A DNA stretch of 63,580 nt, filler included. It is 8 parts of 8 records of this genome, joined end to end, with 100 filler letters (N's around TTAATTAATTAA, not from the genome) between each part and the next. Parts side by side here need not be neighbours in the genome. Positions count along the whole stretch, not along the records: positions 50,742 to 55,774 come from SRR31147125_28062; 7 more parts are not named here. One strand, written 5' to 3'. This document shows positions 6,402 to 56,780 of the stretch, piece by piece. The notes below the pieces were generated by a model. That model did no database searches. It was not told the DNA's origin and worked only from the letters and a program-made list of their open reading frames with translations. Numbering within the stretch: position 1 is the stretch's first letter; the number at the start of each line of letters is the position of its first letter. A program made the translations under genes and the position numbers.

Positions 6402-6501
6402 NNNNNNNNNNNNNNNNNNNNNNNNNNNNNNNNNNNNNNNNNNNNTTAATTAATTAANNNNNNNNNNNNNNNNNNNNNNNNNNNNNNNNNNNNNNNNNNN
6501 N
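6402..6501. other. Artificial contig linker
   Basis: N44-TTAATTAATTAA-N44 (stops in all six frames). Confidence 0.99.
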
Positions 6502-11640: not shown

Positions 11641-11740
11641 NNNNNNNNNNNNNNNNNNNNNNNNNNNNNNNNNNNNNNNNNNNNTTAATTAATTAANNNN
11701 NNNNNNNNNNNNNNNNNNNNNNNNNNNNNNNNNNNNNNNN
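11641..11740. other. Artificial contig linker
   Basis: N-run with TTAATTAATTAA. Confidence 0.99.
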
Positions 11741-12103
11741 AATGGTCTCCAGGGCATTGGCAATGGTGACTTCCAGAGCCTCCATATAAAGGGGCTTGAC
11801 AAGGTAGTCATAGGCCCCGTTTTTCATACTGGAAATGACCAGTTTGATGTCTTCATAGGCGGTGATCATGATGACCAGCACGTCGCTTTTGTACGTCTGG
11901 AACTCTGACAGGGCTTGGGTGCCCTTGATACCGGGCAGTTCAATGTCCAGCAAAATCAGATCGGCCGGATTTTCCTTAAATGCCTCAAGGGCGTCCTCTG
12001 CGGTTTCATAGGAAAACACAGCATAGTCATCTTCAAGTTCAGATGCCAGGCCCTCCCTGATAGTGGGCTCGTCATCCACAACAAAAATGGTATAATTAAT
12101 CAT
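11741..12103 (-). CDS. Response regulator, NtrC-like N-terminal receiver (3' truncated)
   Basis: IFVVDDE, LILLDIELPG, VIMITAY, GAYDYLVKP; ATG at 12103 overlaps the kinase stop (ATGA). Confidence 0.88.
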
Positions 12104-14616: not shown

Positions 14617-14899
14617 CCATGCCCGGAAAAAAATTTCACACCTATGAATAAAATTGAGGTCATTATGGGGGATGATACTACCATAAAAGGTGATTATTCA
14701 AAATATATACCAATCAGCCCAGGCACCGGTACACCACGGCCCTTGCCCCGGCACAGGTTGGTCCTGCCCTGACGAGTCTAAGAAATTTTCAAGTTTTTAA
14801 TAAAATTGTCAGGCCGTCCCCCCTGGCACCACAAAATTTAAATCCTCATAAAGGCCCGGTTAACCGGCATTTCTTCTTGCGCCCCCCAATGAATGGAAT

Positions 14900-14915
14900 T
14901 GGCACAAATCGTGCA
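14900..14915 (+). promoter_or_regulatory. Sigma54 (-24/-12) promoter upstream of pylB
   Basis: TGGCACAAATCGTGCA = GG-N10-GC; AGGAGG RBS at 14959-14964 and ATG at 14971. Confidence 0.7.
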
Positions 14916-14970
14916 ATTTCCGGCAGCAAAGGTCACAATCAGATATGGGCGATGCCCAAGGAGGAACGGT

Positions 14971-16053
14971 ATGGTAGCCGACATCATTGAAAAACGGGAA
15001 AATGGATTTCCTTTTGATAGAGAGGATATCAAAACCCTGCTCTCCCTGTCACAGGCCCAAGATATGGACCTTTTATTTGCGGCGGCAAGAAAGGCCAGGA
15101 AAACATATTTCGGGACCCGGGTCTTTTTGTACGGGTTCCTTTATTTTTCCACCCATTGCCGGAACAACTGCCGATTCTGTCAATACCGCAGGGCCAATAC
15201 CGGCCTGGAACGATATAGAAAAACCGAGGAGCAAATTATTGAGGCTGCAAAACAAATGGGGCGGACAGGGGTCCATCTCATTGATCTGACCATGGGCGAA
15301 GATCCTGAGTTTTTCAAACCGGATTCCGCCCGCTCATCCAATTGGTGAGCAAGGTTAAACAGGCAACCGGGTTGCCGGTCATGGTGTCACCCGGGGTTGT
15401 ACCGGATTCGATTATCCGTGAACTGGCCGAGGCCGGGGGGATTGGCTGGCCTGCTACCAGGAGACCCACAATAGGGATCTGTATGACACCCTGCGGCCGG
15501 GACAGGATTATGACCGCCGTATGGCCGCCAAACGAGCGGCAGCCAGGCAAAGCATGCTTGTGGAAGACGGGCTGCTGTCCGGGGTGGGTGAATCCCTGGA
15601 TGATCTTGCAGACGCCATCATAACCATGCGGGATCAGGCCTATGACCAGGTTAGGGTCATGACCTTTGTCCCCCAGCCCGGCACCCCCATGGCAACACCG
15701 GTTTCAGGCCGGTCTGAGGCACCCTCCAGGAACAAAAAACCATTGCTGTCATGCGGCTGACCATGCCGGACCGCCTCATTCCGGCGTCCCTGGATGTGGG
15801 CGGCTTAGACGGATTAAAAGACCGCCTGGATGCCGGTGCAAACCTGGTGACCTCCATTGTGCCCCCGGCGGCCGGGCTGGCCGGGGTGGCCAACCAGACG
15901 CTTGACATTGAAGAGGCCCGCCGCAGTGTCACCCAGGTATCTGAAATCCTAACGGACTGCGGCCTGTCACCAGCCTCCCAAACCCAATATGACAACTGGA
16001 TCAAAAAACGGCGGCACCTGAAAATACAAACCCTATCCCAGGGTGTCGCTTAG
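14971..16053 (+). CDS. pylB: Methylornithine synthase PylB homolog (radical SAM), split by three apparent single-base deletions
   Basis: YGFLYFSTHCRNNCRFCQYR (CxxxCxxC), GVHLIDLTMGEDP, LPVMVSPG, ACYQETHNRDLY, QVRVMTFVPQPGTP, RLIPASLDVGGLDGL..RLDAGANLVTSIVPP; frames join at about 15312, 15438 and 15723. Confidence 0.85.
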
Positions 16054-16099
16054 TGCCATCACCAAAAAACGAATTGCAACCATTGGAGACCGTTAACAA

Positions 16100-16776
16100 A
16101 TGGAATATTTAAAAAAGGCAGCAAAAACTGCAGAGGGTCACTCCCAGGACATTCGGGGCAAGGTAAAAGAAATCATAAAGGATATTGAGGTCCGCGGTGA
16201 AGCAGCCGTAATTGAGCTGGCCAAAAAATTTGATCATTGGGAAGGTGACTTTATCCTCAGCCCGGAAAAGAAACAGGCCCTGATAAATGAGGTTCCCGAA
16301 GGGGTGAAGGCGGACATCAGATATGCCCATGAACAGGTTTCCGGATTTGCCCGGGCCCAGCGGGACAGCATTAAAGAATTCGAGACCTCCCCCATTGATG
16401 GTGTTCGCTTAGGACAGCGCATCATTCCCATGGATGTGGCAGGGTGTTATATCCCTGGGGGGCGCTTTGCCCATGCCTGCTCTGCGATCATGAGCGTTGC
16501 CACGGCAAAGGCTGCAGGTGTTAAAACCGTTATTGCCTGTTCTCCGCCCAGGGGAAAATCCATTGCCCCGGCAGTGGTTTACGCCCTGGATGTGGCCGGT
16601 GCGGACATCATTCTTGAAATGGGAGGAATCCAGGCCATTGCCACCATGGCATTGGGCCTTTTCACCAACAAACCGGCCAATATTCTGGCCGGCCCCGGGA
16701 ATGCCTATGTGGCCGAGGCCAAAAGTATCCTCTCCTCTGCCGGCAAATGCACCATTGATGTCTTTGCAGGCCCCAC
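16100..16776 (+). CDS. HisD-family NAD-dependent dehydrogenase most like sulfopropanediol 3-dehydrogenase HpsN (3' truncated)
   Basis: EYLKKA N-terminus, AGCYIPGGRFAHACSAIM, ACSPPR, GGIQAIA.MA.G, GPGNAYVAEAK, ID.FAGP. Confidence 0.75.
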
Positions 16777-16876
16777 NNNNNNNNNNNNNNNNNNNNNNNN
16801 NNNNNNNNNNNNNNNNNNNNTTAATTAATTAANNNNNNNNNNNNNNNNNNNNNNNNNNNNNNNNNNNNNNNNNNNN
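16777..16876. other. Artificial contig linker
   Basis: N-run with TTAATTAATTAA. Confidence 0.99.
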
Positions 16877-18466
16877 AAAAAAAAGCTGTTGCGTATGGCC
16901 GCCGCCATTCTTCTGATGGCGGCGGCAGGACTCTACATTGCCTCGAAAGAGGGGGATACCGGAAGCCCTCAGGATAAGACGATCACCCTGGCAAGCTACA
17001 GGGACTTGACACCAGGCAGCAACTTCTTTTTTCCGGAAAGTTCCATCTGTCGAACTTGGGAGAGCCTGGTGGGAATAAAAGAGGATCAATTTTCACCGGT
17101 TCCCCTGCTTGCAACATCGTGGACAATGTCCGATGGCGGGAAACAGTGGATCTTTAATTTAAGACAAAATGTACGATTCCACGATGGCCGTCCTTTTAAT
17201 GCCGATGCCGTCATTGACAACTTTCGTCGGTATGAAAACGCACCGGGTAAAGTGAAATTCTATCGATTTCGAATGGAGCGTTACTACCCCGGTTTCAAAC
17301 GCATTGATAAGATAGGGGACGCTGCAGTCCGTCTCACCTTTCACCAGCCGATACCGACATTACCCTATTATATGGCAAATTGGGGAAGTCCAATGTTCAG
17401 CCCGGCATGTTTTGATAAAAACAGCGGCGAATTTGTAGACGTCCCTTCAGGGACAGGCCCTTTTTGTCTTGTTGAACATGTTGTAGATCAATATTCCGTA
17501 TTGAAACGGTTTGAGGGGTATTGGGGAGAGAAGGCAAAAAGCGAAACAATTCGTCTGAAAGTGATTCCCGAGGTCAATACCCGTTACTCGGCAATGAAAT
17601 CGGAGGAGATCTCCGCGACCCTCGGACTTGCAGGCATTACGCCTGCGCTTGCAGGTGAGCTATTGAAAGATGAGCGCTTTGCCGTCTCTGCGGCACCAAG
17701 CAGTCTTGTCCATTTTCTGGCGGTAAACGGAGAAGAATTTCCTTTCAACGATGTGCGTATGCGCCGGGCAGTCAGTATGATGATCGACAGAGAGTTGTTA
17801 TCCCATGAACTGTATCATGATTTTTTTCCACCCGCGTATAATCTTCTAAGCCCGGTATCACCGTTTCATCACCCCGTCACGGGTTCCCATGACCCGCAAA
17901 ACGCATTATTACTTGCCAAATCGGTCCTTGGCGGCAGACGGGCCGGGCTGGTCCTGCTGCTTTCTACAAAATCGTCGGATTATCCCTATAAGGAAACGGC
18001 ACAATACCTTCAAGCCGTACTCAAACCCATCGGACTCGATATCACCATCCATCAGGTTGAGCACGGCGCATTCAACGACCGTCTTCTTGCCGGTGATTAC
18101 AATCTCTATTTGAGGTGTCAAGGGCTTCCCCACGGAGATCCCATGGGCATTTTCAACGATTACATGCGGTTAAATGGTCGATACGGGATGCACTCCGAGA
18201 CCCAGAACAAGAGATATCATTACAATTATTATAATTTCGAGGCAGAGTCTCTGCTGGATAAAGCGCAGTATGTTTTGGATATGGAAACGCGTCGGGAGTA
18301 CTACAACCGGCTCCAAGAACTTGCCGAATCGACACTTCCGATTATTCCATTGCTCCACGAATCCACGCTCATTGTTCATGATAAAAGACTCTCCGGATAT
18401 CATGCCGCGGCCTATGGCGCAAGTATCCATCAGGCAGAGTGGGGCCCTTGCCATGCCCATAACTGA
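16877..18466 (+). CDS. ABC transporter substrate-binding protein, family 5 (NikA/DppA-like); start at or beyond contig edge
   Basis: PLLATSW..SDGGKQWIFNLRQNVRFHDG.PFNA, GTGPF, PFNDVRMRRAV. Confidence 0.9.
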   Translation, partial: KKKLLRMAAAILLMAAAGLYIASKEGDTGSPQDKTITLASYRDLTPGSNFFFPESSICRTWESLVGIKEDQFSPVPLLATSWTMSDGGKQWIFNLRQNVRFHDGRPFNADAVIDNFRRYENAPGKVKFYRFRMERYYPGFKRIDKIGDAAVRLTFHQPIPTLPYYMANWGSPMFSPACFDKNSGEFVDVPSGTGPFCLVEHVVDQYSVLKRFEGYWGEKAKSETIRLKVIPEVNTRYSAMKSEEISATLGLAGITPALAGELLKDERFAVSAAPSSLVHFLAVNGEEFPFNDVRMRRAVSMMIDRELLSHELYHDFFPPAYNLLSPVSPFHHPVTGSHDPQNALLLAKSVLGGRRAGLVLLLSTKSSDYPYKETAQYLQAVLKPIGLDITIHQVEHGAFNDRLLAGDYNLYLRCQGLPHGDPMGIFNDYMRLNGRYGMHSETQNKRYHYNYYNFEAESLLDKAQYVLDMETRREYYNRLQELAESTLPIIPLLHESTLIVHDKRLSGYHAAAYGASIHQAEWGPCHAHN

Positions 18467-19424
18467 TTGTCTCAAAATAACCGGTTATTTTTTGACAAAG
18501 TCGTTTCAGGCAATCTTTGTCTTGGCCGGTGTCAGTTTCATTGCATTTATTCTCAGTGTGAACTCACCGGGCGATCCTGCCTATCTGATTCTCGTTGCGG
18601 ATGGTAATGCGGAACCCACGCAACGGGAAATTGTGGAAATGCGGCAATCTCTCGGACTGGATCAGCCTTTTTTTCATCAATACTGGCGATGGGCAACAAA
18701 AGCGCTTCATGGGGATTTGGGTCGTTCGTTTGTTACGGGCACCGAGATTGCTGATGAATTTTTGATGCGACTGCCCTATACGGTCACCCTGGCTGTCGTT
18801 TCTATGATTCTTTCAACCGGATGGGGCATATTTCTGGGTCTGTTCATGGCATCGGGTCATAATGGCGTCAAAGATCGTATCGGCCAGGGCATTGCAATGA
18901 CACTGTTATCCCTGCCCGACTTCTGGTTTGCCATCATCCTTATCGGGATTTTTGCCGAAACGTTTCGGATATTGCCCACCTCAGGGGCCGATTCTCCCAT
19001 TCATTACATTCTCCCGGCATTTGTCATGGCTGCCGGTTCAACCGGAAGCCTTGCCAGGCTTTCCAGAACTTTGCTTCTCAATGAAATGGGGATGGATTAC
19101 GTAACCACCGTGAAGTCCAAAGGGGTTTCCGGAACAGATACGCTTTTGCGTCACGCACTTCCCAATGCCATGATTCCCATCTCTACATCACTGGGGCTTC
19201 ATTTCGGACATATCCTTGGCGGGGCTGTCATTGTTGAAACCATATTTGCCATCCCCGGATTGGGGCACTACGTCATGACCGGTATTCTCAATCGCGACTA
19301 TCCGGTGATTCAGGGATTTGTGCTTTATTCCACCGTTTTATACATGACTTTCAATTTCCTTCTCGACCTGATTTATCCTCTGCTTAATCCGGAACTCAGG
19401 CCCAACAAAATGGGGACTCCATGA
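18453..19424 (+). CDS. ABC transporter permease (NikB/DppB-like)
   Basis: PGDPA, LGLDQP..QY, GDLGRSF, EAA-like DYVTTVKSKG, HALPNA, RDYPVIQG; ATG at 18453. Confidence 0.9.
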   Translation: MPITDCLKITGYFLTKSFQAIFVLAGVSFIAFILSVNSPGDPAYLILVADGNAEPTQREIVEMRQSLGLDQPFFHQYWRWATKALHGDLGRSFVTGTEIADEFLMRLPYTVTLAVVSMILSTGWGIFLGLFMASGHNGVKDRIGQGIAMTLLSLPDFWFAIILIGIFAETFRILPTSGADSPIHYILPAFVMAAGSTGSLARLSRTLLLNEMGMDYVTTVKSKGVSGTDTLLRHALPNAMIPISTSLGLHFGHILGGAVIVETIFAIPGLGHYVMTGILNRDYPVIQGFVLYSTVLYMTFNFLLDLIYPLLNPELRPNKMGTP

Positions 19425-20251
19425 ACAGGGGAAAAACGGGGATAATTGTGGCAATATTTGCTGTGGCGATTGTGTTCACCATGATGATCATAACCCTTTG
19501 GGCCCCCTATATCAGCCCTTTCGATCCTTTGGACGTGGATATGCAATCAAGGTTGAAGGCGCCATCCTCAGCCCATCTGTTGGGCACGGATGCCATGGGA
19601 AGAGATTATTTGAGTCGTGTCATTCACGGTGGCAGGGTATCGGTCATCTTGTCCCTTGTGGTGACCTCTCTTGGAATGGTTGTGGGACTGATTGCGGGGA
19701 TTATCGGCGGATATTTCGGGGGGATTACGGATAGTGTCATTTTAGGGATAACCAATATTTTTCTGGGATTACCGGGCATGACTCTTATTATCGCCATTGC
19801 CGGTGCCATGGGGCCGGGGGTGACGACGTTGCTTGTCGCTCTTTCACTTACCGGATGGATGGGGTTCTCGCGAATTATCAGAGGGGAGGTGATGAAGATC
19901 AAACAGGTGGATTTCATGGATGCGGCCCTTGCCATGGGCGCAAGCCATTGGTTTGTCATTTCACGCCACCTTATTCCCAACATGCGAGCCGTTATACTGG
20001 TGACTTTCACGACACGCGTAAGCAGAGCCATGATCCTCATCTCATCATTGAGTTATCTCGGCTTTGGGCTGGAACCGCCTGCTCCGGATTGGGGCGTCAT
20101 GGTGAGAGATGCATTAAACTATTTTAGAAGTGCTCCCCATTTGATTCTTGCACCGGGAGCCTGCATTTTTTTGTTGGTCTTTAATTTGAATATTATCAGT
20201 GATTTTCTACGAGACTATTTTGATGTCAGGGAAGATGCCGTTCAAGGATAG
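19421..20251 (+). CDS. ABC transporter permease (NikC/DppC-like)
   Basis: HLLGTDAMGRD, FMDAALAMGAS, HLIPN, LSYLGFG, DWG. Confidence 0.92.
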   Translation: MNRGKTGIIVAIFAVAIVFTMMIITLWAPYISPFDPLDVDMQSRLKAPSSAHLLGTDAMGRDYLSRVIHGGRVSVILSLVVTSLGMVVGLIAGIIGGYFGGITDSVILGITNIFLGLPGMTLIIAIAGAMGPGVTTLLVALSLTGWMGFSRIIRGEVMKIKQVDFMDAALAMGASHWFVISRHLIPNMRAVILVTFTTRVSRAMILISSLSYLGFGLEPPAPDWGVMVRDALNYFRSAPHLILAPGACIFLLVFNLNIISDFLRDYFDVREDAVQG

Positions 20252-21209
20252 GATAACGATTTTGAGTTCACGGTCGATCATATTTAAGGATGTTTCAATC
20301 TCGTTTTTGACAAGCCACTCGCCCATTTCAGTTGTCAAGGATGTTGAACTTGATTTAAGGGAGGGCAGGGTCACGGGATTGATAGGTGAATCCGGTAGTG
20401 GAAAAACCATACTCGGTATGTCCATTCTTCAGCTTCTTCCGAAAAATGCGGTAACAACAGGCCGTATATATTACCGGGAAAACGATATACTGACATTTCA
20501 AGAGGAGATGCTCCAACACCTGAGGCATAAAGAAATTGCACTGATTCCCCAAAATCCCGGTACGTCCCTTGATCCGGTTATGACCGTGGGTCGACAGATT
20601 GGCGAAGCGCTGTTTCCGACAAAAGCAGATGAAAAAAGATTTGTAACCGGTAAGATTGGATCAATATTGGAAAAAATTAATAGAAGCCATACCCGTATTC
20701 ATCCCTCTCACTATCCTTTTGAATTGAGCGGAGGGATGAAACAGCGCGTCCTCACGGCCATGGGAATTTGCAGGAATCCTAAGTGGCTCATTGCAGATGA
20801 GCCGACCAAAGGGCTTGATGCCTGCCTCAGAAAAGAGATCGGCAAGGTGTTCTGTGATCTACACGATTCAACCGGATGCGGTATTGTGATGATTACCCAT
20901 GATCTTCTGTTGGCGGAAAGCCTGTGCGATCATATGGTTGCAATGTATTGCGGGGAGGTGATCGAAACGGCTCCGGTGAAAGACTATTTTTCAAATCCGG
21001 CTCATCCCTATTCCAAAGCATTGTTGAACGCCTTACCTCGGGGAGGATTTATTCCCATTCCAGGCGAGTCTCCATCAGTCACCGCTCCCCCTGAGGGGTG
21101 CCGGTTCCATCCCAGATGCCCTGTGAAAACGCCCTGCTGTCCGTCAACCCCCCCAATGCTGCACCAAATAGAAGGGGACCGAACCGTGAGATGTCACCAT
21201 TATGCTTAG
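20235..21209 (+). CDS. ABC transporter ATP-binding protein (DppD-like)
   Basis: GESGSGKT, LSGGMKQR, IADEPT, HPYSKALL, GCRFHPRC. Confidence 0.92.
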   Translation: MPFKDRITILSSRSIIFKDVSISFLTSHSPISVVKDVELDLREGRVTGLIGESGSGKTILGMSILQLLPKNAVTTGRIYYRENDILTFQEEMLQHLRHKEIALIPQNPGTSLDPVMTVGRQIGEALFPTKADEKRFVTGKIGSILEKINRSHTRIHPSHYPFELSGGMKQRVLTAMGICRNPKWLIADEPTKGLDACLRKEIGKVFCDLHDSTGCGIVMITHDLLLAESLCDHMVAMYCGEVIETAPVKDYFSNPAHPYSKALLNALPRGGFIPIPGESPSVTAPPEGCRFHPRCPVKTPCCPSTPPMLHQIEGDRTVRCHHYA

Positions 21210-21956
21210 GGTGTCACACATAACAAAATCATTTTACAGAGGGATGTTTCCTCCGATCCGGGTACGTGCCGTCCATGATGTCGGTTTTTCCATCCAAAAG
21301 GGAGAAACCCTTGGACTTGTCGGAGAGAGCGGATGCGGCAAATCAACACTGTCTCGGATCATTATGGGGTTGATTCCTCCAGATCACGGCACCATTTTGC
21401 TGGGAAATAAGACAATCTCACGGTTAAAGGGGGAGCGCTCAGGAATGTGAGAAGAAAAATTCAAATCGTTTTTCAAAATCCTTTTTCCTCATTTGATCCC
21501 CTGCGAAAGGTAAAGCAGAGCCTTCTCGAGCCGCTGATCATCCATGGGGCAATGCCATCCGATCATGAGGGGCGATTGAGAGAAGTGACCCATAACGTCG
21601 GACTTCCTTTTGAAATCATGGATCGGTATCCCCATCAGGTCAGTGGGGGAGAGTTGCAGCGTGCCGCCATTGCAAGGGCTCTTATTCTCAATCCGGATGT
21701 GTTGATTCTTGATGAGCCGACCTCCATGCTGGATGTGTCGATACAGGCAACCATTCTCAACCTGCTTAAAACGATTCAGAACGCATCCAAGGTGAGTTTT
21801 TTGTTTATTTCCCACGATCCGGCTGTTGTTGCATTTATGAGTGATACCATTGCGGTGATGAAAAAAGGCGAACTGTTGGAAATCGGTACGAAAAATCAGA
21901 TTTTTACGAATCCCGAAAATGAGTATACCAGGCGATTACTTGAGCAGAGTTTATGA
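21202..21956 (+). CDS. ABC transporter ATP-binding protein (DppF/NikE-like), apparent frameshift in G-run 21429-21433
   Basis: GESGCGKS in the first frame; one extra G gives RLKGGALRNVRRKIQIVFQ, then VSGGELQR and ILDEPTS. Confidence 0.88.
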
Positions 21957-22013
21957 CGATCATGGCAGGGTATCTCTTCCGGGACTTATATTTTCAAAAA
22001 ACCTGATGTCAGG

Positions 22014-22113
22014 NNNNNNNNNNNNNNNNNNNNNNNNNNNNNNNNNNNNNNNNNNNNTTAATTAATTAANNNNNNNNNNNNNNNNNNNNNNNNNNNNNNN
22101 NNNNNNNNNNNNN
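22014..22113. other. Artificial contig linker
   Basis: N-run with TTAATTAATTAA. Confidence 0.99.
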
Positions 22114-35121: not shown

Positions 35122-35221
35122 NNNNNNNNNNNNNNNNNNNNNNNNNNNNNNNNNNNNNNNNNNNNTTAATTAATTAANNNNNNNNNNNNNNNNNNNNNNN
35201 NNNNNNNNNNNNNNNNNNNNN
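35122..35221. other. Artificial contig linker
   Basis: N-run with TTAATTAATTAA. Confidence 0.99.
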
Positions 35222-50641: not shown

Positions 50642-50741
50642 NNNNNNNNNNNNNNNNNNNNNNNNNNNNNNNNNNNNNNNNNNNNTTAATTAATTAANNN
50701 NNNNNNNNNNNNNNNNNNNNNNNNNNNNNNNNNNNNNNNNN
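50642..50741. other. Artificial contig linker
   Basis: N-run with TTAATTAATTAA. Confidence 0.99.
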
Positions 50742-50845
50742 TCGCAAATTTAGGAAATATTTGCGACAAAAAGACTATAAAAACAGAATATATGTGAGTA
50801 AAGCTCTAAAGAACGTCTAGTTAAAATGGGCAATTTCAGCCACCC

Positions 50846-50875
50846 TTGACTTTTCCAGACGGCGAAGTAACTTTG
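50846..50875 (+). promoter_or_regulatory. Possible Bacteroidota-type promoter (TTG-N19-TAnnTTTG)
   Basis: TTG at 50846 and TAACTTTG at 50868-50875, upstream of the small gene at 51029. Confidence 0.4.
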
Positions 50876-51028
50876 ACGGGATTTAAGGGATGATAGACTA
50901 TTCTACTCCCTCAAAAAACTGTACTGCAAATTCCCGATGGGTGCTCTCTACTCTGAAATATGATTTCAACCTTATCATATAACAATTTATTCGCAAAACC
51001 ATTTTATAATCAAAAAAACTGAAAGACA

Positions 51029-51236
51029 ATGACCTATTACTATGTAAACAGAAATGCTCAGTCTAATGGTGATCATGAGGTACACACGCAGGTAGTTGTT
51101 CTTACTTACCAGCAGAAGAGAACAGAATTTATTTAGGCTCTTTTGCTAATTGTGCTGATGCAGTTAGAGCGGCTAGAAGGTATTATAGCCAGGCTAATGG
51201 CTGTTATTACTGCAGTCTCCTTGCCATACCGGGTAA
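51029..51236 (+). CDS. Small Cys/His-rich hypothetical protein (~69 aa), two apparent single-base deletions; absent from ORF track
   Basis: Reconstructed MTYYYVNRNAQSNGDHEVHT(A)GSCSYLPAEENRIYLGSFANCADAVRAARRYYSQANGCYYCS(P)PCHTG*; shifts near 51089 and 51217; followed by a terminator. Confidence 0.7.
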
Positions 51237-51257
51237 TTTAGTAAAATTATTATCGAT

Positions 51258-51287
51258 TAACGACCGCCTTTCTTTAGGTGGTCGTTA
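51258..51287 (+). terminator. Intrinsic terminator
   Basis: TAACGACCGCCT-ttcttt-AGGTGGTCGTTA followed by TTTATCCTTT. Confidence 0.7.
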
Positions 51288-51552
51288 TTTATCCTTTCAC
51301 AAAGTCTCGTATGTAATTTTACCGTTTATCAATCGCCTTTTGTATGCTTATGTGGCTTTAATGAAGGCGTATTCCCAGGAGTATTCTTATTATCTCGCTG
51401 ACGTCTGTCGGGTGCTCCTGTTGATTTAGCAGTTCTTTTTGGACCTGGTTTAATTCCCATTTTAATCTATCTTAGTTAATAATTAATTGTAAGCTAAAAT
51501 TAATCAAAAAAGCTGGGAACGTTACGATTATTAAATTCAAATGTAATTTAAA

Positions 51553-53358
51553 TTAAATATAATATTTAGCATTGAAGAATTCATTAATCTTCTTTTCATC
51601 TTCCTGATTTATAATGTATTCCATTTCGTCGCTACTTGGCCTGTATATTCCAAAATTCTTTAAGTAATTTCGACTTAATGAATAATAACCGGAACCATAA
51701 GGTTTGCTTGTTTTCTTAATATATGACCAAAATAATTCTGTGCTCATTAATCTTTTGAGAAAAAGCAATTCTTCTATGTCGTCTGATATCACAGCCAATC
51801 CATTATGAAATAATAGATTTTCATCTCTACTTAATATAAAATTTGGAATTTTGTGAGAAATGTGAGGAAAGAATAATTTAATTGGTAATTTCTCTAAAGA
51901 CTGATTTCGTCCATATGCATACCAATTCTCATAAATCCCATTTCCTTTATCTCTTGTCGCCAGAAGTTCCCTCATACATCTTAGATACTGATATGTCTTT
52001 GGAAAACTCTTTTTTATGTTTTTTTCATCATAGAGTTTTACACTATTTCCATCATAAAAATATGGGAATATAACCTTTTGTTTAAGAGAATCTAGATTAT
52101 CATTCTCGATAAATTTATTGGGATTAACTATTTCCTTACAGATAGTCTTTTCGATTTCATATACGGTTTTATCATCCTTTAAATAATAGTAATATTCATT
52201 TTCATCAACTGGTGAAAATATATAGACTCTGTTTTTTAACGTAGCAATACCATTCCTTGTTTTATAGAGCTTTCCAAATGGGATACCCGTCGTTTCAATT
52301 TTTTTCACATAGTCTATGTCGTGGAGATTCCAGCCATTCTTTGAGTTTAAATCAGCATAATCGATTCTGCTATAAGGTATGGGGAGATTTAAATTTCCTT
52401 CCGAAGTTCTAACATATTGAATAAAGGGAGATTCTGTTTTTACTAGAAGACAAATGCATGTATATGTTGATTTGCTTGCAAATATTTGGTGATTACCAAA
52501 ATCTATAATTCTGAATTTTAATGATTCTGATTTCAAATATTGCCGAAGAGCACGCCCATTTACACTTTTAAAAAAACTATTCATAGTGATATACCCTAAA
52601 GAACCATTTGTTTTTAGATTCTCAAGTCCTATCTGAAAAAATGGGATATATAAATCCGGATGACCTGTTGAACATACATTCCATTTGTGCAAGTACCTTT
52701 TACTATCATCATCAATATTCCGTGAACAAACGTATGGTGGATTTCCTAAAATGATATCAAACTTGAACTTCCATTCAAAATTTAAAGCATTACCAACAAA
52801 CAAATTAAATTGAAAACTTTTATGTTCTTCTCCATTCATGATCGCAGCTAGGGTAAGAAGAATCTTTGTTCTCTCAATACTATACTCCTTGATATCTAGA
52901 CCATAGATGCTGTTTTTGTATATTTCATAAAAACTATTCCCAGATTTTTTCTTCAAAAATATCGCCGCATCTGCCAGGAAGCCACCGCATCCGCAAGCGA
53001 TATCTGCAATCCTTAACCTCCGTCCGGCATAATTCTGTTTAATAGTATCCTGTATTAAAAAAGAACGAATATGTGAAGGTGTATAAACCGCTCCATTGAT
53101 AACTTTATCTTCCGGAGAAATCACAAATTCAAAAAGCTCAATTAAATCTTCTAATTCAAAACCCTCCTGAAAATGTTTGTAGAAATTAATGAAATGGGAA
53201 TAGTCTTCATCTATTGACTGAATAAGATTAGACTTTATGAGTTCATTTTCTTTAATTCTGATTTTATTAATTTCGATAAAGGTTGATATTAGTAAGCGAT
53301 TAATCAGAACTATATCTGTTGTATATTTCTTTAAATATTGGAATATACTCTGTCTCAT
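51553..53358 (-). CDS. N6-adenine DNA methyltransferase, gamma class (TaqI/Eco57I-like) with C-terminal TRD
   Basis: GAVYTP (motif X), IADIACGCGGFL (I), IYGLDI, FDIILGNPPY (IV), DLYIPFF, WYAYGRNQ; ATG at 53358 overlaps the upstream TGA. Confidence 0.92.
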   Translation of the reverse strand: MRQSIFQYLKKYTTDIVLINRLLISTFIEINKIRIKENELIKSNLIQSIDEDYSHFINFYKHFQEGFELEDLIELFEFVISPEDKVINGAVYTPSHIRSFLIQDTIKQNYAGRRLRIADIACGCGGFLADAAIFLKKKSGNSFYEIYKNSIYGLDIKEYSIERTKILLTLAAIMNGEEHKSFQFNLFVGNALNFEWKFKFDIILGNPPYVCSRNIDDDSKRYLHKWNVCSTGHPDLYIPFFQIGLENLKTNGSLGYITMNSFFKSVNGRALRQYLKSESLKFRIIDFGNHQIFASKSTYTCICLLVKTESPFIQYVRTSEGNLNLPIPYSRIDYADLNSKNGWNLHDIDYVKKIETTGIPFGKLYKTRNGIATLKNRVYIFSPVDENEYYYYLKDDKTVYEIEKTICKEIVNPNKFIENDNLDSLKQKVIFPYFYDGNSVKLYDEKNIKKSFPKTYQYLRCMRELLATRDKGNGIYENWYAYGRNQSLEKLPIKLFFPHISHKIPNFILSRDENLLFHNGLAVISDDIEELLFLKRLMSTELFWSYIKKTSKPYGSGYYSLSRNYLKNFGIYRPSSDEMEYIINQEDEKKINEFFNAKYYI

Positions 53359-54119
53359 ATTGCCTTTAATTGTGGGAAAATTAGGTTTGGCGACCAATTA
53401 ATGGCACCTGGAGCAGACGCAGGCCATTGTGAAGCCAATGTATGTACAAAAGGTTTGACCAATGAACTATAATACTCCTGAAGAAGAGAATTGTAAGTGC
53501 TTTCCTTTAATAATTGATTCCAATAATCAGGGAAAAAATTTGATAAAACGAAATCAAAACCAATAATTAGATCTGTTGGATAAAACATCACTCTTGGGGC
53601 ATCTAAAAAGATAGTATGACCAATATTGGCATTATCGAAGTCCATCTTTTTTCCTCCAAAATGCAAATGATACATTGGATGTGGTTCTTCACTTTCACTA
53701 TCTAAATGACGATCAATATGATAACAAATATGATGAAGTTGGCTATCCGCATCATATCCTTTTACTGAAATATTGAATTCTAATTTTTTTAAGGGATCAT
53801 AAATTAATCCCCAATAATCACAGGAAGCGATGAAGTCTATTGATAAAAGTACACTTATTGGATTTAATCCCTTAGGTTGTATATGTTTAGGTGGTTCAAT
53901 GAGTGGAATCTCAAAATTATCTATGTTATATCCCCAATATGAATAATCGACTTCGTCCTCTTGTTTAACTTTTTTTGTCCTATTAAAATCCGTTAAATCT
54001 TTCGCAGCATCTCTTAATTTATAACTTGGTATTCCAATCTTATCAAAAAGTTCTGCAAGTTGAGTTAAATCTTGAGCTCGATCGATCCGAAACTTTTTCT
54101 GTTTGGTATTCAAACTCAT
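53355..54119 (-). CDS. Hypothetical protein with His-rich motif (YHIDRH..HPMYHLHFGG..PR..PxD)
   Basis: 254-aa ORF with ATGA overlaps at both ends. Confidence 0.85.
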   Translation of the reverse strand: MSLNTKQKKFRIDRAQDLTQLAELFDKIGIPSYKLRDAAKDLTDFNRTKKVKQEDEVDYSYWGYNIDNFEIPLIEPPKHIQPKGLNPISVLLSIDFIASCDYWGLIYDPLKKLEFNISVKGYDADSQLHHICYHIDRHLDSESEEPHPMYHLHFGGKKMDFDNANIGHTIFLDAPRVMFYPTDLIIGFDFVLSNFFPDYWNQLLKESTYNSLLQEYYSSLVKPFVHTLASQWPASAPGAINWSPNLIFPQLKAI

Positions 54120-55218
54120 TCTTGCAATGATTTTTTTATTATTTCAACTCTTTCTTTTTCAGATGGATGAAGCTTGATATTCCTATCTTCAAATCCCTCA
54201 CGTTCTAAAATGGCCTCGAGTGATATGTAATCATAATCTTGCCATGATTTAGGCTCTCTGGACATTACAATTTTAAATCCTTCACGTGGATCTAGCGGAC
54301 GATTATATCCTTTACAAATTGTCCAATAACGATAACTATTACATTTCTCTATTTTTTCAGCAAATTTGAAATCCTTATATTCAATTTTATCTTTAAGAAT
54401 TGTTACTCTTTCTCTTGCATCTAGAGCAGCCAAATTATTTCCAGTTAGCATTTTGAAAATCTCCAAAACTTCATTCATCCACCATCTATTCCAGCCCTCT
54501 AAAAATACACCTTTGTATTTGGCTCCTGAAAAAACATCGTTTTTTATATCATCCCATGAAGGAGATTCTTTAATATCAATTCCTAATCTAGCGGCCAGCA
54601 TCTCTTCATTAATTAAAGGTCATTGATGAACAACAGATCCTTTAAAATGACCTGTGCTATATTGTAATTAGGGAGTTGCTCGGCAACAAGTAAATGAGAA
54701 TATAATCTCGAATCAACATTAACCTCATTTGTATCTAGCATTTTGCCAAAACTGAGATCGGAGTTTGCAATGTTTTCATAGCCTAAAATTAGTGAATGAA
54801 TTTTTGCTGATTCTAAATTATAATCTTTACGGTCTTTATGAAACCGCATATCAAATAAGTCATGACTACTAATATCTCTCCGATATAAGTTATTAATCTT
54901 CTGTTGGGTAGAACATAGTATAATTGGAATATCAAGAGATTTTTCATCAATTGATTTTTCTCTTATGTTCTGGGCTAAGGTAGGAGCTTTAAATGAAACT
55001 CTTTTCCCTTGGGAATTTGCAGCCTCGTCAAGTTGTAAATCAAGAATTACAGCTTGTGCGTTTTCTTCTTGAATTTTTGAAATAATTATTTCAAGGTTAT
55101 CAACTTCACATAGCACTACAGACAAAAGGCCATTCGCTTCTAATGCGTCCTTTATAGCCTCTATTTGTGCTCGACCACCATTAATTTCATCGTCAATATA
55201 TAATACTTTTTTAGTCAT
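54116..55218 (-). CDS. Response-regulator receiver protein with long unknown C-terminal domain (apparent frameshift near 54620)
   Basis: KVLYIDDE, VILDLQL, IPIILCST; one extra G gives FINGPLINEEMLAARLGID, joining ORFs 54613-55248 and 54116-54601. Confidence 0.8.
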
Positions 55219-55774
55219 TATCTTCAAATTTATGCATTGGTACTTCAATCTTAATGGTTGTTGAAAAACCTTGCTCAGGTTCTTTTACATAAATGTCACC
55301 ACCATATCCTTCAACAATATCTTTCACTATTTTAAGGCCAAGGCCTGTTCCTGTCATTTCTTCAATTTCATCCGCATCTTTTCCAGAAGGCTTACTGGTT
55401 GTAAAGAACGGAACAAAAATTTTCTCATAGCTTGTTAAAGGAATTCCATCACCATTATCGGAAAACTCAAGAAAAATAGAATCATTCAATCTTCCAGCCT
55501 TAACAAAGATTTTACCATTTACGCCAGCTCTTTTAATTGCTTTTTTAGAATTTGAAAAGAAATTAAATAAAATAGAAGCCCATTCTGATTTATGCATAGG
55601 GCATGTAAATAAATCATACCCTTTGAATTGGTGTTCTACCAACTCAATTCCAGCCCTAGAGCAATTAGGTTCAACTACTTTGTAAAATGGTTTAACTACA
55701 TCTCGGATTTCGATAGGCTCTAACTCCCGATTTACATTTTCTGAAATTGCTTTATCAAAATAAGAAGTATAGGT
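55211..55774 (-). CDS. Histidine kinase HATPase_c C-terminal part (5' truncated)
   Basis: SILFNFFSNSKKA (N), FSDNGDGIP (G1), IFVPFFTT (F), GTGLGL (G2); frame open to contig edge. Confidence 0.88.
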   Translation of the reverse strand, partial: TYTSYFDKAISENVNRELEPIEIRDVVKPFYKVVEPNCSRAGIELVEHQFKGYDLFTCPMHKSEWASILFNFFSNSKKAIKRAGVNGKIFVKAGRLNDSIFLEFSDNGDGIPLTSYEKIFVPFFTTSKPSGKDADEIEEMTGTGLGLKIVKDIVEGYGGDIYVKEPEQGFSTTIKIEVPMHKFEDND

Positions 55775-55874
55775 NNNNNNNNNNNNNNNNNNNNNNNNNN
55801 NNNNNNNNNNNNNNNNNNTTAATTAATTAANNNNNNNNNNNNNNNNNNNNNNNNNNNNNNNNNNNNNNNNNNNN
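55775..55874. other. Artificial contig linker
   Basis: N-run with TTAATTAATTAA. Confidence 0.99.
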
Positions 55875-56780
55875 GCAATTTGGCAGATTATTCAGGCATC
55901 GGTTCGGGAGGCCTTAGGTAAATTTAATGTTGTTCCTTCAATCGATTTTGATCAGGCCGGGAGCATTGATATTCCTGTTGCGCTGAAGGATCATTCTGAG
56001 ATCAAGCCGCCTACTATTCAAATAGATCCAAGTTATAACCCATTTGAGGAAGAAAAGAGATTTTCAGGAAGTTCAGCTCCTTCTTTCCAAACTAAAGAAA
56101 AGACTTCGGCTGGGAATTGGGAAAAACTGTATAGTGACTTCGATCGTCAGCCTGATGAAATTCAAATTCAACCCAAAGAAGAGAATCTTGAAATTCAGCA
56201 TGAGCAGGAATCATATTCAGGAAAATCGTTTATTCAGTTTAAAAATAAATATATTCTAAGTCCGGTAAAGTCTGGTTTAATGGTGATTGATCAGAAACGG
56301 GCACATGAACGAATCTTGTTCGAGAATTTTATGGCAGTTATGGCAAGCAGTGAGATAGCTAGCCAGCAGCAGTTGTTCCCACAAACATTTGATTTGTCGG
56401 CTGCTGATGCAGAGCTGCTGCGTTCAATTTTAGAAGATTTAAAAGCTCTTGGTTTTGATATTCGTGATTTTGGAAACAATAGTTTCATTATTAATGGAAC
56501 TCCGGGCATGTTGGATACTTCATCTCCACTTGAAATTATTGAAGGGATGTTGGAAGATATGAAAAGTACTGCTGATGATCTAAAAGAAAAGGCCAAAGAA
56601 AAAGTTGCTGCATCATTGGCCAGAGCTTCGGCAATTGCGTATGGGTATGTCATGAAGCCGGAAGAAATGAACCAGATCATTGATCAGCTATTTGCCTGTT
56701 CAACTCCAAATTTTTCACCATCTGGCAAACAGGTGTTGACAATCATGCCGATTGAGCAATTTGAAAAACTTTTGAAGTGA
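55875..56780 (+). CDS. mutL: DNA mismatch repair endonuclease MutL, C-terminal part
   Basis: Open frame from contig edge (ALGKFNVVPSIDF...) into IDQKRAHERILFE, SQQQLFPQ, LFACSTPNFSPSGK. Confidence 0.9.
   Translation, partial: AIWQIIQASVREALGKFNVVPSIDFDQAGSIDIPVALKDHSEIKPPTIQIDPSYNPFEEEKRFSGSSAPSFQTKEKTSAGNWEKLYSDFDRQPDEIQIQPKEENLEIQHEQESYSGKSFIQFKNKYILSPVKSGLMVIDQKRAHERILFENFMAVMASSEIASQQQLFPQTFDLSAADAELLRSILEDLKALGFDIRDFGNNSFIINGTPGMLDTSSPLEIIEGMLEDMKSTADDLKEKAKEKVAASLARASAIAYGYVMKPEEMNQIIDQLFACSTPNFSPSGKQVLTIMPIEQFEKLLK

What the first reader, a model, noticed from the sequence alone, without database searches (positions are those of the whole stretch)
51553..55774. Translationally coupled histidine kinase - receiver - His-rich unknown - N6-adenine MTase operon: candidate signalling-coupled defence/modification system
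Seen: four minus-strand genes with tight overlaps (kinase/receiver 8 bp, then ATGA at 54116-54119 and 53355-53358) in an AT-rich contig. No recognisable restriction endonuclease or HsdS/HsdR is visible, and the MTase is the last gene. Known: GHKL/MORC-type ATPases fused to histidine kinases, with receiver genes, have been noted computationally next to restriction-modification genes. I know of no experimental characterisation of this four-gene arrangement. Inference: a phosphorelay may gate an effector (the receiver C-terminal domain or the 254-aa protein) while the MTase marks self DNA. The kinase N-terminus is missing, so its sensor/ATPase architecture cannot be seen.
Basis: partly seen in the sequence, partly recalled or inferred. 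Interest (0 to 1): 0.8.

Follow-up and report, generated by a model that had tools for sequence, protein, structure and literature searches.

The report
Ambrosia-like kinase-gated methylase defence cassette
A mobile four-gene cassette joins a DNA adenine methylase to a MORC-like sensor kinase, a receiver protein and an enzyme-like protein of unknown fold; it is an untested variant of a kind of anti-phage system shown to work in 2025.

Summary
The operon is real, but it sits on a 5,033-base contig piece (window 50742-55774) bounded by N linkers. That boundary is why the kinase is cut. The receiver gene is split in the window by a one-base deletion. Contigs from the probable source run and from an independent run carry the missing base, so the gene is most likely intact. 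Across 88 non-redundant related loci, the receiver lies beside the 254-aa gene in 74 of 74 and the kinase in 61 of 61. An Eco57I-type N6-adenine methylase lies directly downstream in 64 of 75, and directly upstream of the kinase in 6 more. The cassette has lower GC than its flanks and sits among defence and mobile genes. The 254-aa protein has a confident predicted fold with no match in the PDB and no Pfam family, although the family has 942 cluster representatives. It occupies the place of the HNH nuclease of Ambrosia, a kinase/receiver/methylase anti-phage system validated in a 2025 preprint. Verdict: a new variant of a known kind with an uncharacterised effector. This scan has noted Ambrosia-like cassettes before on other DNA (42 notes).

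The parts
55211..55774 (-). 3' part (187 codons) of the sensor histidine kinase gene: the end of the DHp region plus the HATPase_c catalytic domain. The 5' part, about 1.75 kb, is lost at the contig boundary.
   Evidence: Pfam HATPase_c E 3.4e-17. NCBIfam histidine-kinase models match. 79% identical to the C-terminus of the 769-aa kinase of L001. Alignment A6. N linker at 55775.
54116..55218 (-). Receiver protein gene (RECX): a REC domain plus a conserved C-terminal domain of about 210 aa with unassigned fold. In the window it reads as two ORFs, 54613-55218 and 54116-54601.
54613..54621 (-). Break in the receiver gene: one base is missing between + strand 54620 and 54621, giving a stop at 54613-54615.
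   Evidence: Frames. Contigs of runs X1 and X3 have one extra base behind 54620 (table 4).
53355..54119 (-). U254: a 254-aa His/Asp-rich protein of unknown fold, the presumed effector. It sits in the position of Ambrosia's nuclease.
51553..53358 (-). Eco57I-family gamma-class N6-adenine DNA methyltransferase (601 aa from the ATG at 53358) with a C-terminal target-recognition region.
   Evidence: Pfam Eco57I 1.5e-26 and N6_Mtase 1.2e-17. PADLOC MTase_II 1.1e-100 over 65-608. NPPY in 35 of 35 and motif I in 34 of 35 complete relatives. ATGA overlap with U254.
55775..55874 (.). Artificial linker (N44, TTAATTAATTAA, N44): a contig boundary.
50642..50741 (.). Artificial linker: the other contig boundary.
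51258..51287 (.). 12-bp-stem palindromic hairpin 265 bases downstream of the methylase stop. Possibly a terminator; function not shown.
   Evidence: Consensus scan only: 4 terminator-like sites found against 2.2 expected.

Best explanation
This is a contig-truncated copy of an Ambrosia-type anti-phage / anti-foreign-DNA cassette.

In the complete form, a soluble kinase has a MORC-type GHKL ATPase as its input module. That module probably clamps or senses DNA, or senses an infection cue. The kinase autophosphorylates on the conserved His of its H-E box and passes the phosphate to Asp59 of the receiver protein RECX. Activated RECX has an aromatic-rich, probably DNA-binding C-terminal domain. It then switches on the last two functions, either by inducing transcription (as proposed for Ambrosia) or by direct contact. 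Those functions are the 254-aa protein U254, which replaces Ambrosia's HNH nuclease and is most likely a metal-dependent enzyme acting on DNA, and the Eco57I-type N6-adenine methylase.

Shown here: the gene content and order, their conservation and mobility, the domain folds of the kinase, REC and methylase, and the conservation of all catalytic and phosphorelay motifs.

Inferred: the signal, the direction of control, U254's activity, and whether methylation protects self DNA or marks target DNA.
For: Synteny in 88 non-redundant loci:
- RECX lies directly upstream of U254 in 74 of 74 loci with enough flank.
- The kinase is present in 61 of 61.
- The methylase is directly downstream in 64 of 75.
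- 6 of the other 11 have an Eco57I-type methylase directly upstream of the kinase, which is Ambrosia's order.

Operon and unit behaviour:
- Genes overlap or abut.
- Pairwise identities of the four proteins correlate across 35 complete loci, Spearman 0.52-0.78.

Catalytic competence:
- Full kinases have HATPase_c_3 plus HATPase_c in 6 of 6, with GHKL motifs, the H-E box and the N/G1/G2 boxes conserved.

Mobility and defence context:
- GC is below both flanks in 8 of 8 genome loci.
- The cassette is rare and patchy: 1 of 400 other Bacteroidota genomes sampled and 0 of 399 other Gammaproteobacteria scored.
- Hosts span Bacteroidota, Campylobacterota and Gammaproteobacteria.
- Neighbours include AbiEii in 8 loci, type I and type III R-M genes, TIR, KAP NTPase, ArdC/TraG, integrases and a pAgo gene on a Hymenobacter plasmid.
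- In L005 the cassette lies between housekeeping genes and tRNA-Gly/Gly/Ser.

Experimental analog. Ambrosia comprises an XRE regulator, an N6A methylase, a kinase/HSP90-like ATPase, a REC-wHTH protein and an HNH nuclease. It blocks phages, every gene and receiver D60 are required, and expression is induced on infection (10.1101/2025.09.30.679545, passages).

Other links:
- A Cro/C1-type regulator sits directly upstream of the kinase in 5 of 34 loci scanned, including the closest relative L001.
- One natural RECX-U254 fusion exists: P0039, 617 aa, with the U254 part at E 7e-45.
Against: - No experiment exists for this variant.
- U254 has no detectable similarity to any nuclease or any solved fold. 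It is unrelated to an HNH_2 protein (hhalign E 0.44). 'Effector' rests on position and conserved His/Asp residues only.
- Homology to the Ambrosia proteins themselves could not be tested, because their sequences are in supplements I could not open.
- RECX matches neither Response_reg_2 (0 of 60) nor any HTH family. Its C-terminal domain could not be searched alone.
- The HEF_HK model matches only 1 of 6 kinases, and below Pfam's cut-off.
- The single fusion protein may be a sequencing artefact. A search for longer fused forms found none.
- In the window the kinase is incomplete and the receiver is broken as deposited.
Confidence: 0.65

Rival explanations
1. Conventional type II restriction-modification system. 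U254 is a sequence-specific restriction endonuclease of a new fold, and the methylase constitutively protects host DNA. The kinase/receiver pair only times expression, doing the job of a C (controller) protein during establishment in a new host.
For: U254 and the methylase overlap by 4 bp and are adjacent in 64 of 75 loci. The methylase matches a stand-alone type II methylase model end to end, 1.1e-100. Restriction enzymes often have no detectable relatives (established knowledge, recalled). U254 has invariant His/Asp residues.
Against: In 6 loci the methylase is separated from U254 by the kinase and receiver genes. One relative (L096) keeps kinase, receiver and a U254-like gene with no adjacent methylase, and L091 has no recognisable one. 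That would be lethal for an unregulated restriction enzyme. U254 is linked to the kinase/receiver more strictly (74/74, 61/61) than to the methylase. In Ambrosia, methylation did not protect phages.
Confidence: 0.15
2. [quoted passage not shown] U254 is an accessory, such as a sensor, adaptor or inhibitor that holds RECX in check.
For: The RECX C-terminal domain is conserved, with invariant G236, W245, W246, W325 and near-invariant R210, R244, C301, D309, H349. In Detocs the receiver protein itself carries the effector (10.1101/2023.01.24.525353, passages). RECX and U254 are the fastest-evolving pair, with median identity 36% against 51% for the kinase, as expected of interacting or phage-facing parts.
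Against: The conserved residues of the RECX C-terminal domain are mostly aromatic, which fits binding more than catalysis. Its secondary structure (helix-strand-helix-helix-strands at 183-246) looks like a winged helix, as reported for AbrC. U254 has the more enzyme-like invariant set of D, H, H, R.
Confidence: 0.12
3. Not an immune system. It is a signal-controlled epigenetic switch in which the phosphorelay tunes adenine methylation of the host chromosome to regulate host genes.
For: An orphan-looking methylase plus a two-component pair could regulate gene expression. No nuclease is recognisable.
Against: Distribution is patchy and laterally transferred, GC is low, and the cassette sits among defence and mobile genes. 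A methylase-less variant exists. The validated analog defends against phages.
Confidence: 0.05

Closest known systems
Ambrosia (AbrR, AbrA, AbrB, AbrC, AbrD) of Pseudomonas aeruginosa; preprint 10.1101/2025.09.30.679545 (passages read; figures and supplements not seen)
   Same: A type II-like N6-adenine methylase, a soluble histidine kinase with an HSP90/GHKL-type ATPase, and a receiver protein whose phospho-acceptor Asp is at about position 60, followed by a last 'effector' gene. An XRE regulator lies upstream in some copies. A subset of relatives (6 loci) even has Ambrosia's order: methylase, kinase, receiver, last gene.
   Different: The last gene is U254 (unknown fold), not an HNH nuclease. 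In most copies (64 of 75) the methylase follows U254 instead of preceding the kinase. Hosts are mainly Bacteroidota and Campylobacterota rather than Pseudomonadales. Sequence homology to AbrA-D was not testable here.
HEF_HK / Response_reg_2 'two-component-like' modules beside R-M genes (Bellieny-Rabelo et al. 2021, PMC8011034; abstract, Results and Discussion read)
   Same: The kinase architecture is HATPase_c_3, then a DHp-like H-E box, then HATPase_c. It is soluble, sits next to a receiver-like protein with an unknown C-terminal part, and is linked to DNA methylases.
   Different: That work found mostly C5-cytosine methylases, Vsr and HNH_2 neighbours. Here the methylase is an Eco57I-type N6A enzyme. 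The receiver does not match PF19192 (0 of 60). HEF_HK matches 1 of 6 kinases, below the cut-off. U254 is not mentioned in the parts I read.
paraMORC / prokaryotic MORC ATPases in R-M contexts (Iyer, Abhiman & Aravind 2008, PMC2292703; abstract and passages)
   Same: An N-terminal GHKL ATPase of the HATPase_c_3 type in a laterally mobile R-M-like operon.
   Different: The passages I read describe GHKL+S5 proteins with helicases and nucleases, and do not mention a fused histidine kinase or a receiver ('receiver' occurs 0 times).
Detocs (DtcA, DtcB, DtcC), a defensive two-component system (10.1101/2023.01.24.525353; passages)
   Same: A phosphorelay used directly as an anti-phage system. The kinase His and receiver Asp are required, and effector modules are swappable.
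   Different: Detocs has a TPR sensor kinase, a stand-alone buffer receiver and an effector fused to the receiver (usually an ATP nucleosidase), and no methylase. No PADLOC defence model other than methylase, restriction-enzyme (REase_II), MzaB GHKL-type and weak chance-level models (e.g. PDC-M43B, E 0.014) matched our proteins.
Type II R-M systems with controller (C) proteins (recalled, no call)
   Same: A methylase adjacent to a small unknown protein, with an XRE-type regulator upstream in some copies.
   Different: A kinase/receiver pair is an obligatory part of the unit. Methylase position is variable, and at least one copy lacks a methylase.

Membership tests
Ambrosia | N6-adenine DNA methyltransferase of the type II kind in the operon (AbrA) | tested here: met
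   Eco57I / N6_Mtase domains and NPPY. PADLOC MTase_II 1.1e-100. An Eco57I-type methylase adjoins the unit in 70 of 75 non-redundant loci with flank: 64 downstream and 6 upstream.
Ambrosia | Sensor histidine kinase with an HSP90/GHKL-like ATPase (AbrB) | tested here: met
   The window holds only the HATPase_c end. Full-length relatives have HATPase_c_3 plus HATPase_c in 6 of 6, with a conserved H-E box.
Ambrosia | Receiver protein with phospho-acceptor Asp (D60 in AbrC) | tested here: met
Ambrosia | Winged helix-turn-helix output on the receiver protein | tested here: inconclusive
   Secondary structure at 183-246 is compatible. A few OmpR-type regulators align out to residue 244. No HTH family matches.
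Ambrosia | Type IV HNH endonuclease as last gene (AbrD) | tested here: not met
   U254 shows no significant HNH match: only one sub-threshold HNH_4 row, 1 of 98 members at E 0.11. Against an HNH_2 protein, hhalign gives E 0.44. No solved nuclease fold matches.
Ambrosia | XRE regulator upstream (AbrR) | not testable with these tools
   The window's contig ends inside the kinase. A Cro/C1-type HTH gene lies directly upstream in 5 of 34 loci scanned, including the closest relative L001.
Ambrosia | Sequence homology to AbrA-AbrD (the authors' HMM cut-offs) | not testable with these tools
   Sequences and Table S2 are in bioRxiv supplements, which are closed. No Ambrosia locus turned up in 399 other Gammaproteobacteria genomes scored.
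Ambrosia | Anti-phage activity dependent on every gene | not testable with these tools
   Needs an experiment.
HEF_HK / Response_reg_2 module (PMC8011034) | Kinase with HATPase_c_3 + HEF_HK (PF19191) + HATPase_c | tested here: inconclusive
   Both ATPase domains are present in 6 of 6. PF19191 matches 1 of 6, at E 6.3e-5 and 23.8 bits against a cut-off of 24.1. An H-E box is present.
HEF_HK / Response_reg_2 module (PMC8011034) | Receiver protein matching Response_reg_2 (PF19192) | tested here: not met
   0 of 60 RECX sequences match at E<=1. There are only weak iREC (5 of 60) and Response_reg (2 of 60) matches.
HEF_HK / Response_reg_2 module (PMC8011034) | Adjacent kinase and receiver genes beside a DNA methylase | tested here: met
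paraMORC (PMC2292703) | GHKL ATP-binding motifs | tested here: met
   The ExxxNxxD, DxGxG and GxxGxG motifs are nearly invariant in 12 full-length kinases. Motif I is present in 33 of 35.
paraMORC (PMC2292703) | S5-fold domain after the GHKL domain | not tested
   No kinase structure was predicted.
Detocs | Stand-alone buffer receiver (DtcB) and effector fused to the receiver (DtcC) | tested here: not met
   The conserved unit has one receiver gene only. No Detocs model appears among PADLOC matches.
Classical type II R-M | Recognisable restriction endonuclease paired with the methylase | tested here: inconclusive
   No endonuclease family matches U254, and no fold matches. A new endonuclease fold cannot be excluded.

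The most novel reading that the evidence does not exclude
U254 founds a new class of DNA-targeting enzyme, with a novel fold and an invariant Asp/His/His/Arg centre. It is held inactive until it is engaged directly by the phosphorylated receiver protein. The receiver's tryptophan-rich C-terminal domain reads the adenine-methylation state of DNA. On this reading the cassette is a post-translationally gated, methylation-aware restriction machine rather than a transcriptionally induced R-M system.
Probability: 0.22. Interest if true: 0.8.

Novelty: new variant of a known kind. Interest (0 to 1): 0.48.

Why it matters
Kinase/receiver-wired R-M-like systems were predicted in 2021, and one of them (Ambrosia) was shown to defend in 2025. 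How they sense infection and what the methylase is for are still open questions.

This variant is widespread: U254 has 942 cluster representatives at 50% identity. Its effector position is filled by a protein with no known fold or family. Characterising it could yield a new nuclease or DNA-acting enzyme class. It could also show whether the phosphorelay acts on transcription or directly on the effector.

The methylase-first, methylase-last and methylase-less permutations found here give natural material for testing whether methylation protects self DNA or marks the target. Several carriers are cultured type strains, so the tests are practical.

Tried and rejected
- **Complex prediction of RECX with U254 (alignments A4 and A5).** It never ran.
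- **Whole-genome search of the window's own genome.** None is held.
- **ESM Atlas.** The window's U254 is not held. The stored homolog P0002 gave only unnamed clusters and a weak DUF2290 lead (0.88, 15% of members). Pfam did not bear that lead out: DUF2290 matched 1 of 98 at E 0.099. The RECX C-terminal part gave no usable hit.
- **Fold searches of the RECX model** (PDB Foldseek, VIA wide, BFVD). They returned only receiver domains, so the C-terminal domain stays untested.
- **Profile searches against PDB sequences.** U254 best E 0.31; RECX none.
- **PHROGs.** Nothing for U254 or RECX.
- **Search for longer fused forms of U254.** None scored. This is weak evidence, because it also missed the known fusion P0039.
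- **RNA runs.** No RNA holder is listed, so nothing can be said on expression.
- **Rfam and tRNA scans of the contig.** Nothing found.
- **Promoter-like sites.** 26 found against 24.6 expected, which is not informative.
- **Rejected: insertion into mutL.** I first considered that the cassette had inserted into mutL, because a MutL C-terminal fragment follows. The N linkers show it is a separate contig.
- **Rejected: REC and the 161-aa ORF as two genes.** Relatives and read-derived contigs show one gene.
- **Repeat scan of L005.** No clear flanking repeats bound the cassette.

Full report
**What is in the window**

The window is a chain of contigs joined by artificial linkers (N44, TTAATTAATTAA, N44). 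The finding lies on a 5,033-base piece, 50742-55774. On the minus strand it carries four genes.
- The last 187 codons of a histidine kinase (55211-55774; HATPase_c E 3.4e-17).
- A receiver gene.
- A 254-aa ORF (53355-54119).
- An Eco57I-family N6-adenine methyltransferase (51553-53358; Eco57I 1.5e-26, N6_Mtase 1.2e-17; PADLOC MTase_II 1.1e-100).

ATGACTAA joins the kinase and receiver at 55211-55218. ATGA occurs at 54116-54119 and at 53355-53358. The MutL C-terminal fragment at 56280-56780 belongs to the next contig.

**The break in the receiver gene**

As deposited, the receiver gene is split by a frame change and a stop at 54613-54615 into ORFs of 211 and 161 aa. In all 9 genome relatives it is one ORF of 340-389 aa, and the two window pieces align end to end with it.

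I laid contigs of four public runs on the stretch. The probable source run (X1) gave a contig of 8,537 bases at depth 62.5 with no other difference over 2,401 bases. That contig and one from an independent run (X3) both carry one extra base behind + strand 54620, which restores the frame. The junction then reads like the relatives' conserved G-P-L-I motif. The split is therefore most likely an error of the deposited assembly. The same X1 contig runs several kilobases past the window's contig end, so the full kinase exists in that sample.

**Conservation of the unit**

With the 254-aa protein (U254) as probe I collected 9 genome loci, 80 metagenome loci (the best 80 of 143 relatives found), 2 IMG/VR loci and 1 more genome locus. 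I scored them with HMMs built from the nine genome copies. After merging copies at 95% identity or more (92 loci to 88 clusters; L010, a duplicate of L001, was dropped) the counts were as follows.
- The receiver gene lies directly upstream of U254 in 74 of 74 loci with at least 300 bases upstream.
- The kinase is present in 61 of 61 loci with at least 1,500 bases upstream.
- The methylase lies directly downstream in 64 of 75 loci with at least 300 bases downstream.

The 11 exceptions break down like this.
- Six (L072, L083, L086, L087, L089, L093) have an Eco57I-type methylase of 466-572 aa directly upstream of the kinase instead.
- L091 has no recognisable methylase.
- Four (L041, L075, L079, L084) have 850 bases or fewer downstream and too little upstream to tell.

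A second, distant copy in the Marithrix genome (L096) has kinase, receiver and a U254-like gene but no adjacent methylase.

Pairwise identities of the four proteins correlate across 35 complete loci (Spearman 0.52-0.78). The kinase is the most conserved (median 51%) and the receiver and U254 the least (36%). Related sequences inflate such correlations, so this shows only that nothing contradicts inheritance as a unit.

**Mobility and context**

Cassette GC is below both flanks in 8 of 8 genome loci, for example 0.356 against 0.532 and 0.416 in Pontibacter.

The cassette is rare. It was found in 1 of 400 other sampled Bacteroidota genomes and in 0 of 399 other scored Gammaproteobacteria. Even so, it occurs in several groups.
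- Bacteroidota: Carboxylicivirga, Algoriphagus, Flavobacterium, Flagellimonas, Pontibacter, and a Hymenobacter plasmid.
- Campylobacterota: Marinarcus, Arcobacteraceae. Source-given names also include Sulfuricurvum, Sulfurimonas and Aliarcobacter.
- Gammaproteobacteria: Marithrix.

Neighbours include AbiEi/AbiEii pairs (8 loci), type I and type III R-M genes, a TIR protein, KAP NTPase with a PD-(D/E)XK protein, ArdC, TraG, integrases, a transposase and HigB, and a Piwi-domain gene on the Hymenobacter plasmid. In the complete Marinarcus genome the cassette lies between pyrF/nusB/ribH and a tRNA-Gly/Gly/Ser cluster.

**The four proteins**

- **Kinase (750-790 aa in relatives).**
  - It has an N-terminal HATPase_c_3, the MORC/paraMORC type (E 1e-24 to 1e-28), and a C-terminal HATPase_c in 6 of 6 scanned.
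  - The GHKL motifs, an H-E box (H545-E546, L001 numbering) and the N, G1 and G2 boxes are nearly invariant.
  - Pfam's HEF_HK matches only 1 of 6, just below its cut-off.
- **Receiver protein RECX.**
  - The AlphaFold model of the L001 ortholog is confident (pLDDT 92.9, pTM 0.90).
  - The acidic pair, Asp59, Ser/Thr and Lys127 are conserved in 60 sequences.
  - The remaining 210 residues or so are conserved and rich in invariant tryptophans. Their secondary structure is compatible with a winged helix followed by a small alpha/beta part.
  - Every fold search was filled by receiver domains, so the fold of this part is untested.
  - No member matches Response_reg_2 (0 of 60). The family has at least 184 members, none with a Pfam label.
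- **U254.**
  - The model is confident (pLDDT 84.9, pTM 0.81; two N-terminal helices, a five-stranded sheet, C-terminal helices).
  - It has no PDB sequence match.
  - No significant Pfam family turned up in 98 diverse members; the most frequent row matched 3 of 98, best E 0.011.
  - An exhaustive profile search found 942 cluster representatives at E<=0.001 and 327 at E<=1e-30, so the family is large and unnamed.
  - Invariant residues are D136, H147, P148, H151, P175, R176, P181 and P249. H134, D108, Y150, D189 and N194 are nearly invariant.
  - This pattern looks like a metal or catalytic centre, but that is inference.
- **Methylase.** It keeps NPPY in 35 of 35 and motif I in 34 of 35 complete relatives.

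**Comparison with what is known**

- **The 2021 prediction.** Kinase/receiver pairs with this kinase architecture beside methylases were described computationally by Bellieny-Rabelo et al. 2021 (PMC8011034; abstract, Results and Discussion read). They were found mainly with C5 methylases, Vsr and HNH_2.
- **The 2008 paraMORC paper.** Iyer et al. 2008 (PMC2292703; abstract and passages) defines paraMORCs in R-M contexts but does not mention receivers.
- **The lead to Ambrosia.** I read its Ambrosia passages.
- **What Ambrosia is.**
  - It has an XRE regulator, a type II-like N6A methylase, a kinase/HSP90-like ATPase, a REC-wHTH protein and a type IV HNH nuclease.
  - It protects P. aeruginosa PAO1 against two phage groups.
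  - Mutating any gene, including receiver D60, abolishes defence.
  - Reporters in place of the methylase or nuclease genes are induced on infection.
  - Phage grown on the methylase alone stays sensitive.
- **How our cassette compares.** It has the same logic, and U254 sits where the HNH nuclease sits. Six relatives even have Ambrosia's gene order.
- **A distant branch.** A Paraburkholderia plasmid carries XRE, an NPPY methylase, a kinase, a 355-aa protein and a 225-aa protein. The last two align weakly with RECX (hhalign E 2e-4, probability 46%) and with U254's H-P-x-[YF]-H-x-Q motif (E 0.0045, probability 8%). This hints at a still more distant branch but is not proof.
- **Regulator.** A Cro/C1-type regulator lies directly upstream of the kinase in 5 of 34 loci scanned, including the closest relative. 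The window's contig ends before that position.
- **Not HNH.** U254 is not a divergent HNH (hhalign E 0.44 against an HNH_2 protein).
- **Limits of the comparison.** Direct homology to AbrA-D could not be tested, because the preprint's supplements are closed. They may bear on whether this variant was already listed among Ambrosia instances.
- **Detocs.** This system (10.1101/2023.01.24.525353, passages) shows independently that phosphorelays serve as defence systems. It differs in all parts except the relay.

**Mechanism**

The best-supported reading (0.65) is an Ambrosia-type system.
1. The MORC-like input of the kinase senses infection or foreign DNA.
2. The phosphate passes from the kinase His to Asp59 of RECX.
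3. RECX turns on U254 and the methylase.

Whether control is transcriptional (as proposed for Ambrosia) or direct is open. Several observations lean towards a physical link between RECX and U254: a single natural RECX-U254 fusion (P0039), the strict RECX-U254 adjacency, and their fast co-divergence. But the fusion may be an artefact, a search for longer forms found none, and the complex prediction could not be run.

The classical type II R-M rival (0.15) is weakened by the methylase's variable position and by a methylase-less copy.

My text searches found no paper on this variant. They returned 5 papers, 12, 1 and 1. U254 has no name, so text search cannot exclude a mention.

**Verdict**

This is a real, conserved, mobile cassette and a new variant of a known kind. 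The kind was predicted in 2021 and validated in 2025, and this scan has noted it repeatedly (42 notes in at least 31 genomes; AI notes, not independent evidence). The open and interesting part is U254, together with the receiver's output domain.

Noticed in passing
window 6402-6501, 11641-11740, 16777-16876, 22014-22113, 35122-35221, 50642-50741, 55775-55874: The window is a concatenation of at least eight contigs joined by N44-TTAATTAATTAA-N44 linkers. Neighbourhood arguments across these points are invalid.
   Followed up: partly
window 56280-56780 (+): A MutL C-terminal dimerisation domain (MutL_C, E 2e-26) starts right after a linker. It is a contig-end fragment, not a gene disrupted by the cassette.
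   Followed up: partly
window 12001-22000: GC rises to 0.47-0.54 against about 0.32-0.42 elsewhere. These are separate contigs of different composition and were not examined.
   Followed up: no
window 51029-51241 (+): About 800 bases downstream of the methylase hold no ORF of 60 aa or more. Two short + strand ORFs (35 and 32 aa; the first begins MTYYYVNRNAQSNGDHEVH) are followed by a 12-bp-stem hairpin at 51258-51287. This may be a small gene broken by a frame change.
   Followed up: no
L096 6164-10229 (second copy in the Marithrix genome, G003:C332): A distant paralogous kinase, receiver and U254-like triad with no adjacent methylase. A PLD-like gene lies two genes upstream and a nucleotidyltransferase/HEPN-like gene lies downstream.
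   Followed up: partly
L097 (Hymenobacter sp. PAMC 26628 plasmid NZ_CP014303.1): The same four-gene cassette, all but the methylase and kinase annotated 'hypothetical', lies on an 89.6-kb plasmid next to a Piwi-domain (prokaryotic Argonaute) gene and a large DNA methyltransferase.
   Followed up: partly
L098 3334-8966 (Paraburkholderia plasmid NZ_AP023177.1): XRE, NPPY methylase (460 aa), kinase, a 355-aa and a 225-aa protein in Ambrosia's gene order, beside an integrase. The last two proteins resemble RECX and U254 only faintly.
   Followed up: partly
L078 1802-2775; L090 58-770: Other copies with a split receiver gene (L078) or a split U254 gene (L090). These are either assembly errors like the window's or decaying copies.
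   Followed up: no
L004, L007, L021, L022, L026, L038, L042, L081 (directly upstream of the kinase): AbiEii-type nucleotidyltransferase toxin genes, with AbiEi or DUF6577 partners, precede the cassette on the same strand in 8 loci. This is more often than expected for a chance neighbour, so they may travel together.
   Followed up: no
L007 12715-13665: An HNH_2 endonuclease gene starts 18 bases after the methylase in Flagellimonas meridianipacifica, so this copy has both U254 and an Ambrosia-like HNH gene.
   Followed up: no
P0039 (617 aa, ENA metagenome protein): A single polypeptide joining a RECX-like and a U254-like part. In it the usual GG after the H-P-x-Y-H motif is replaced.
   Followed up: partly
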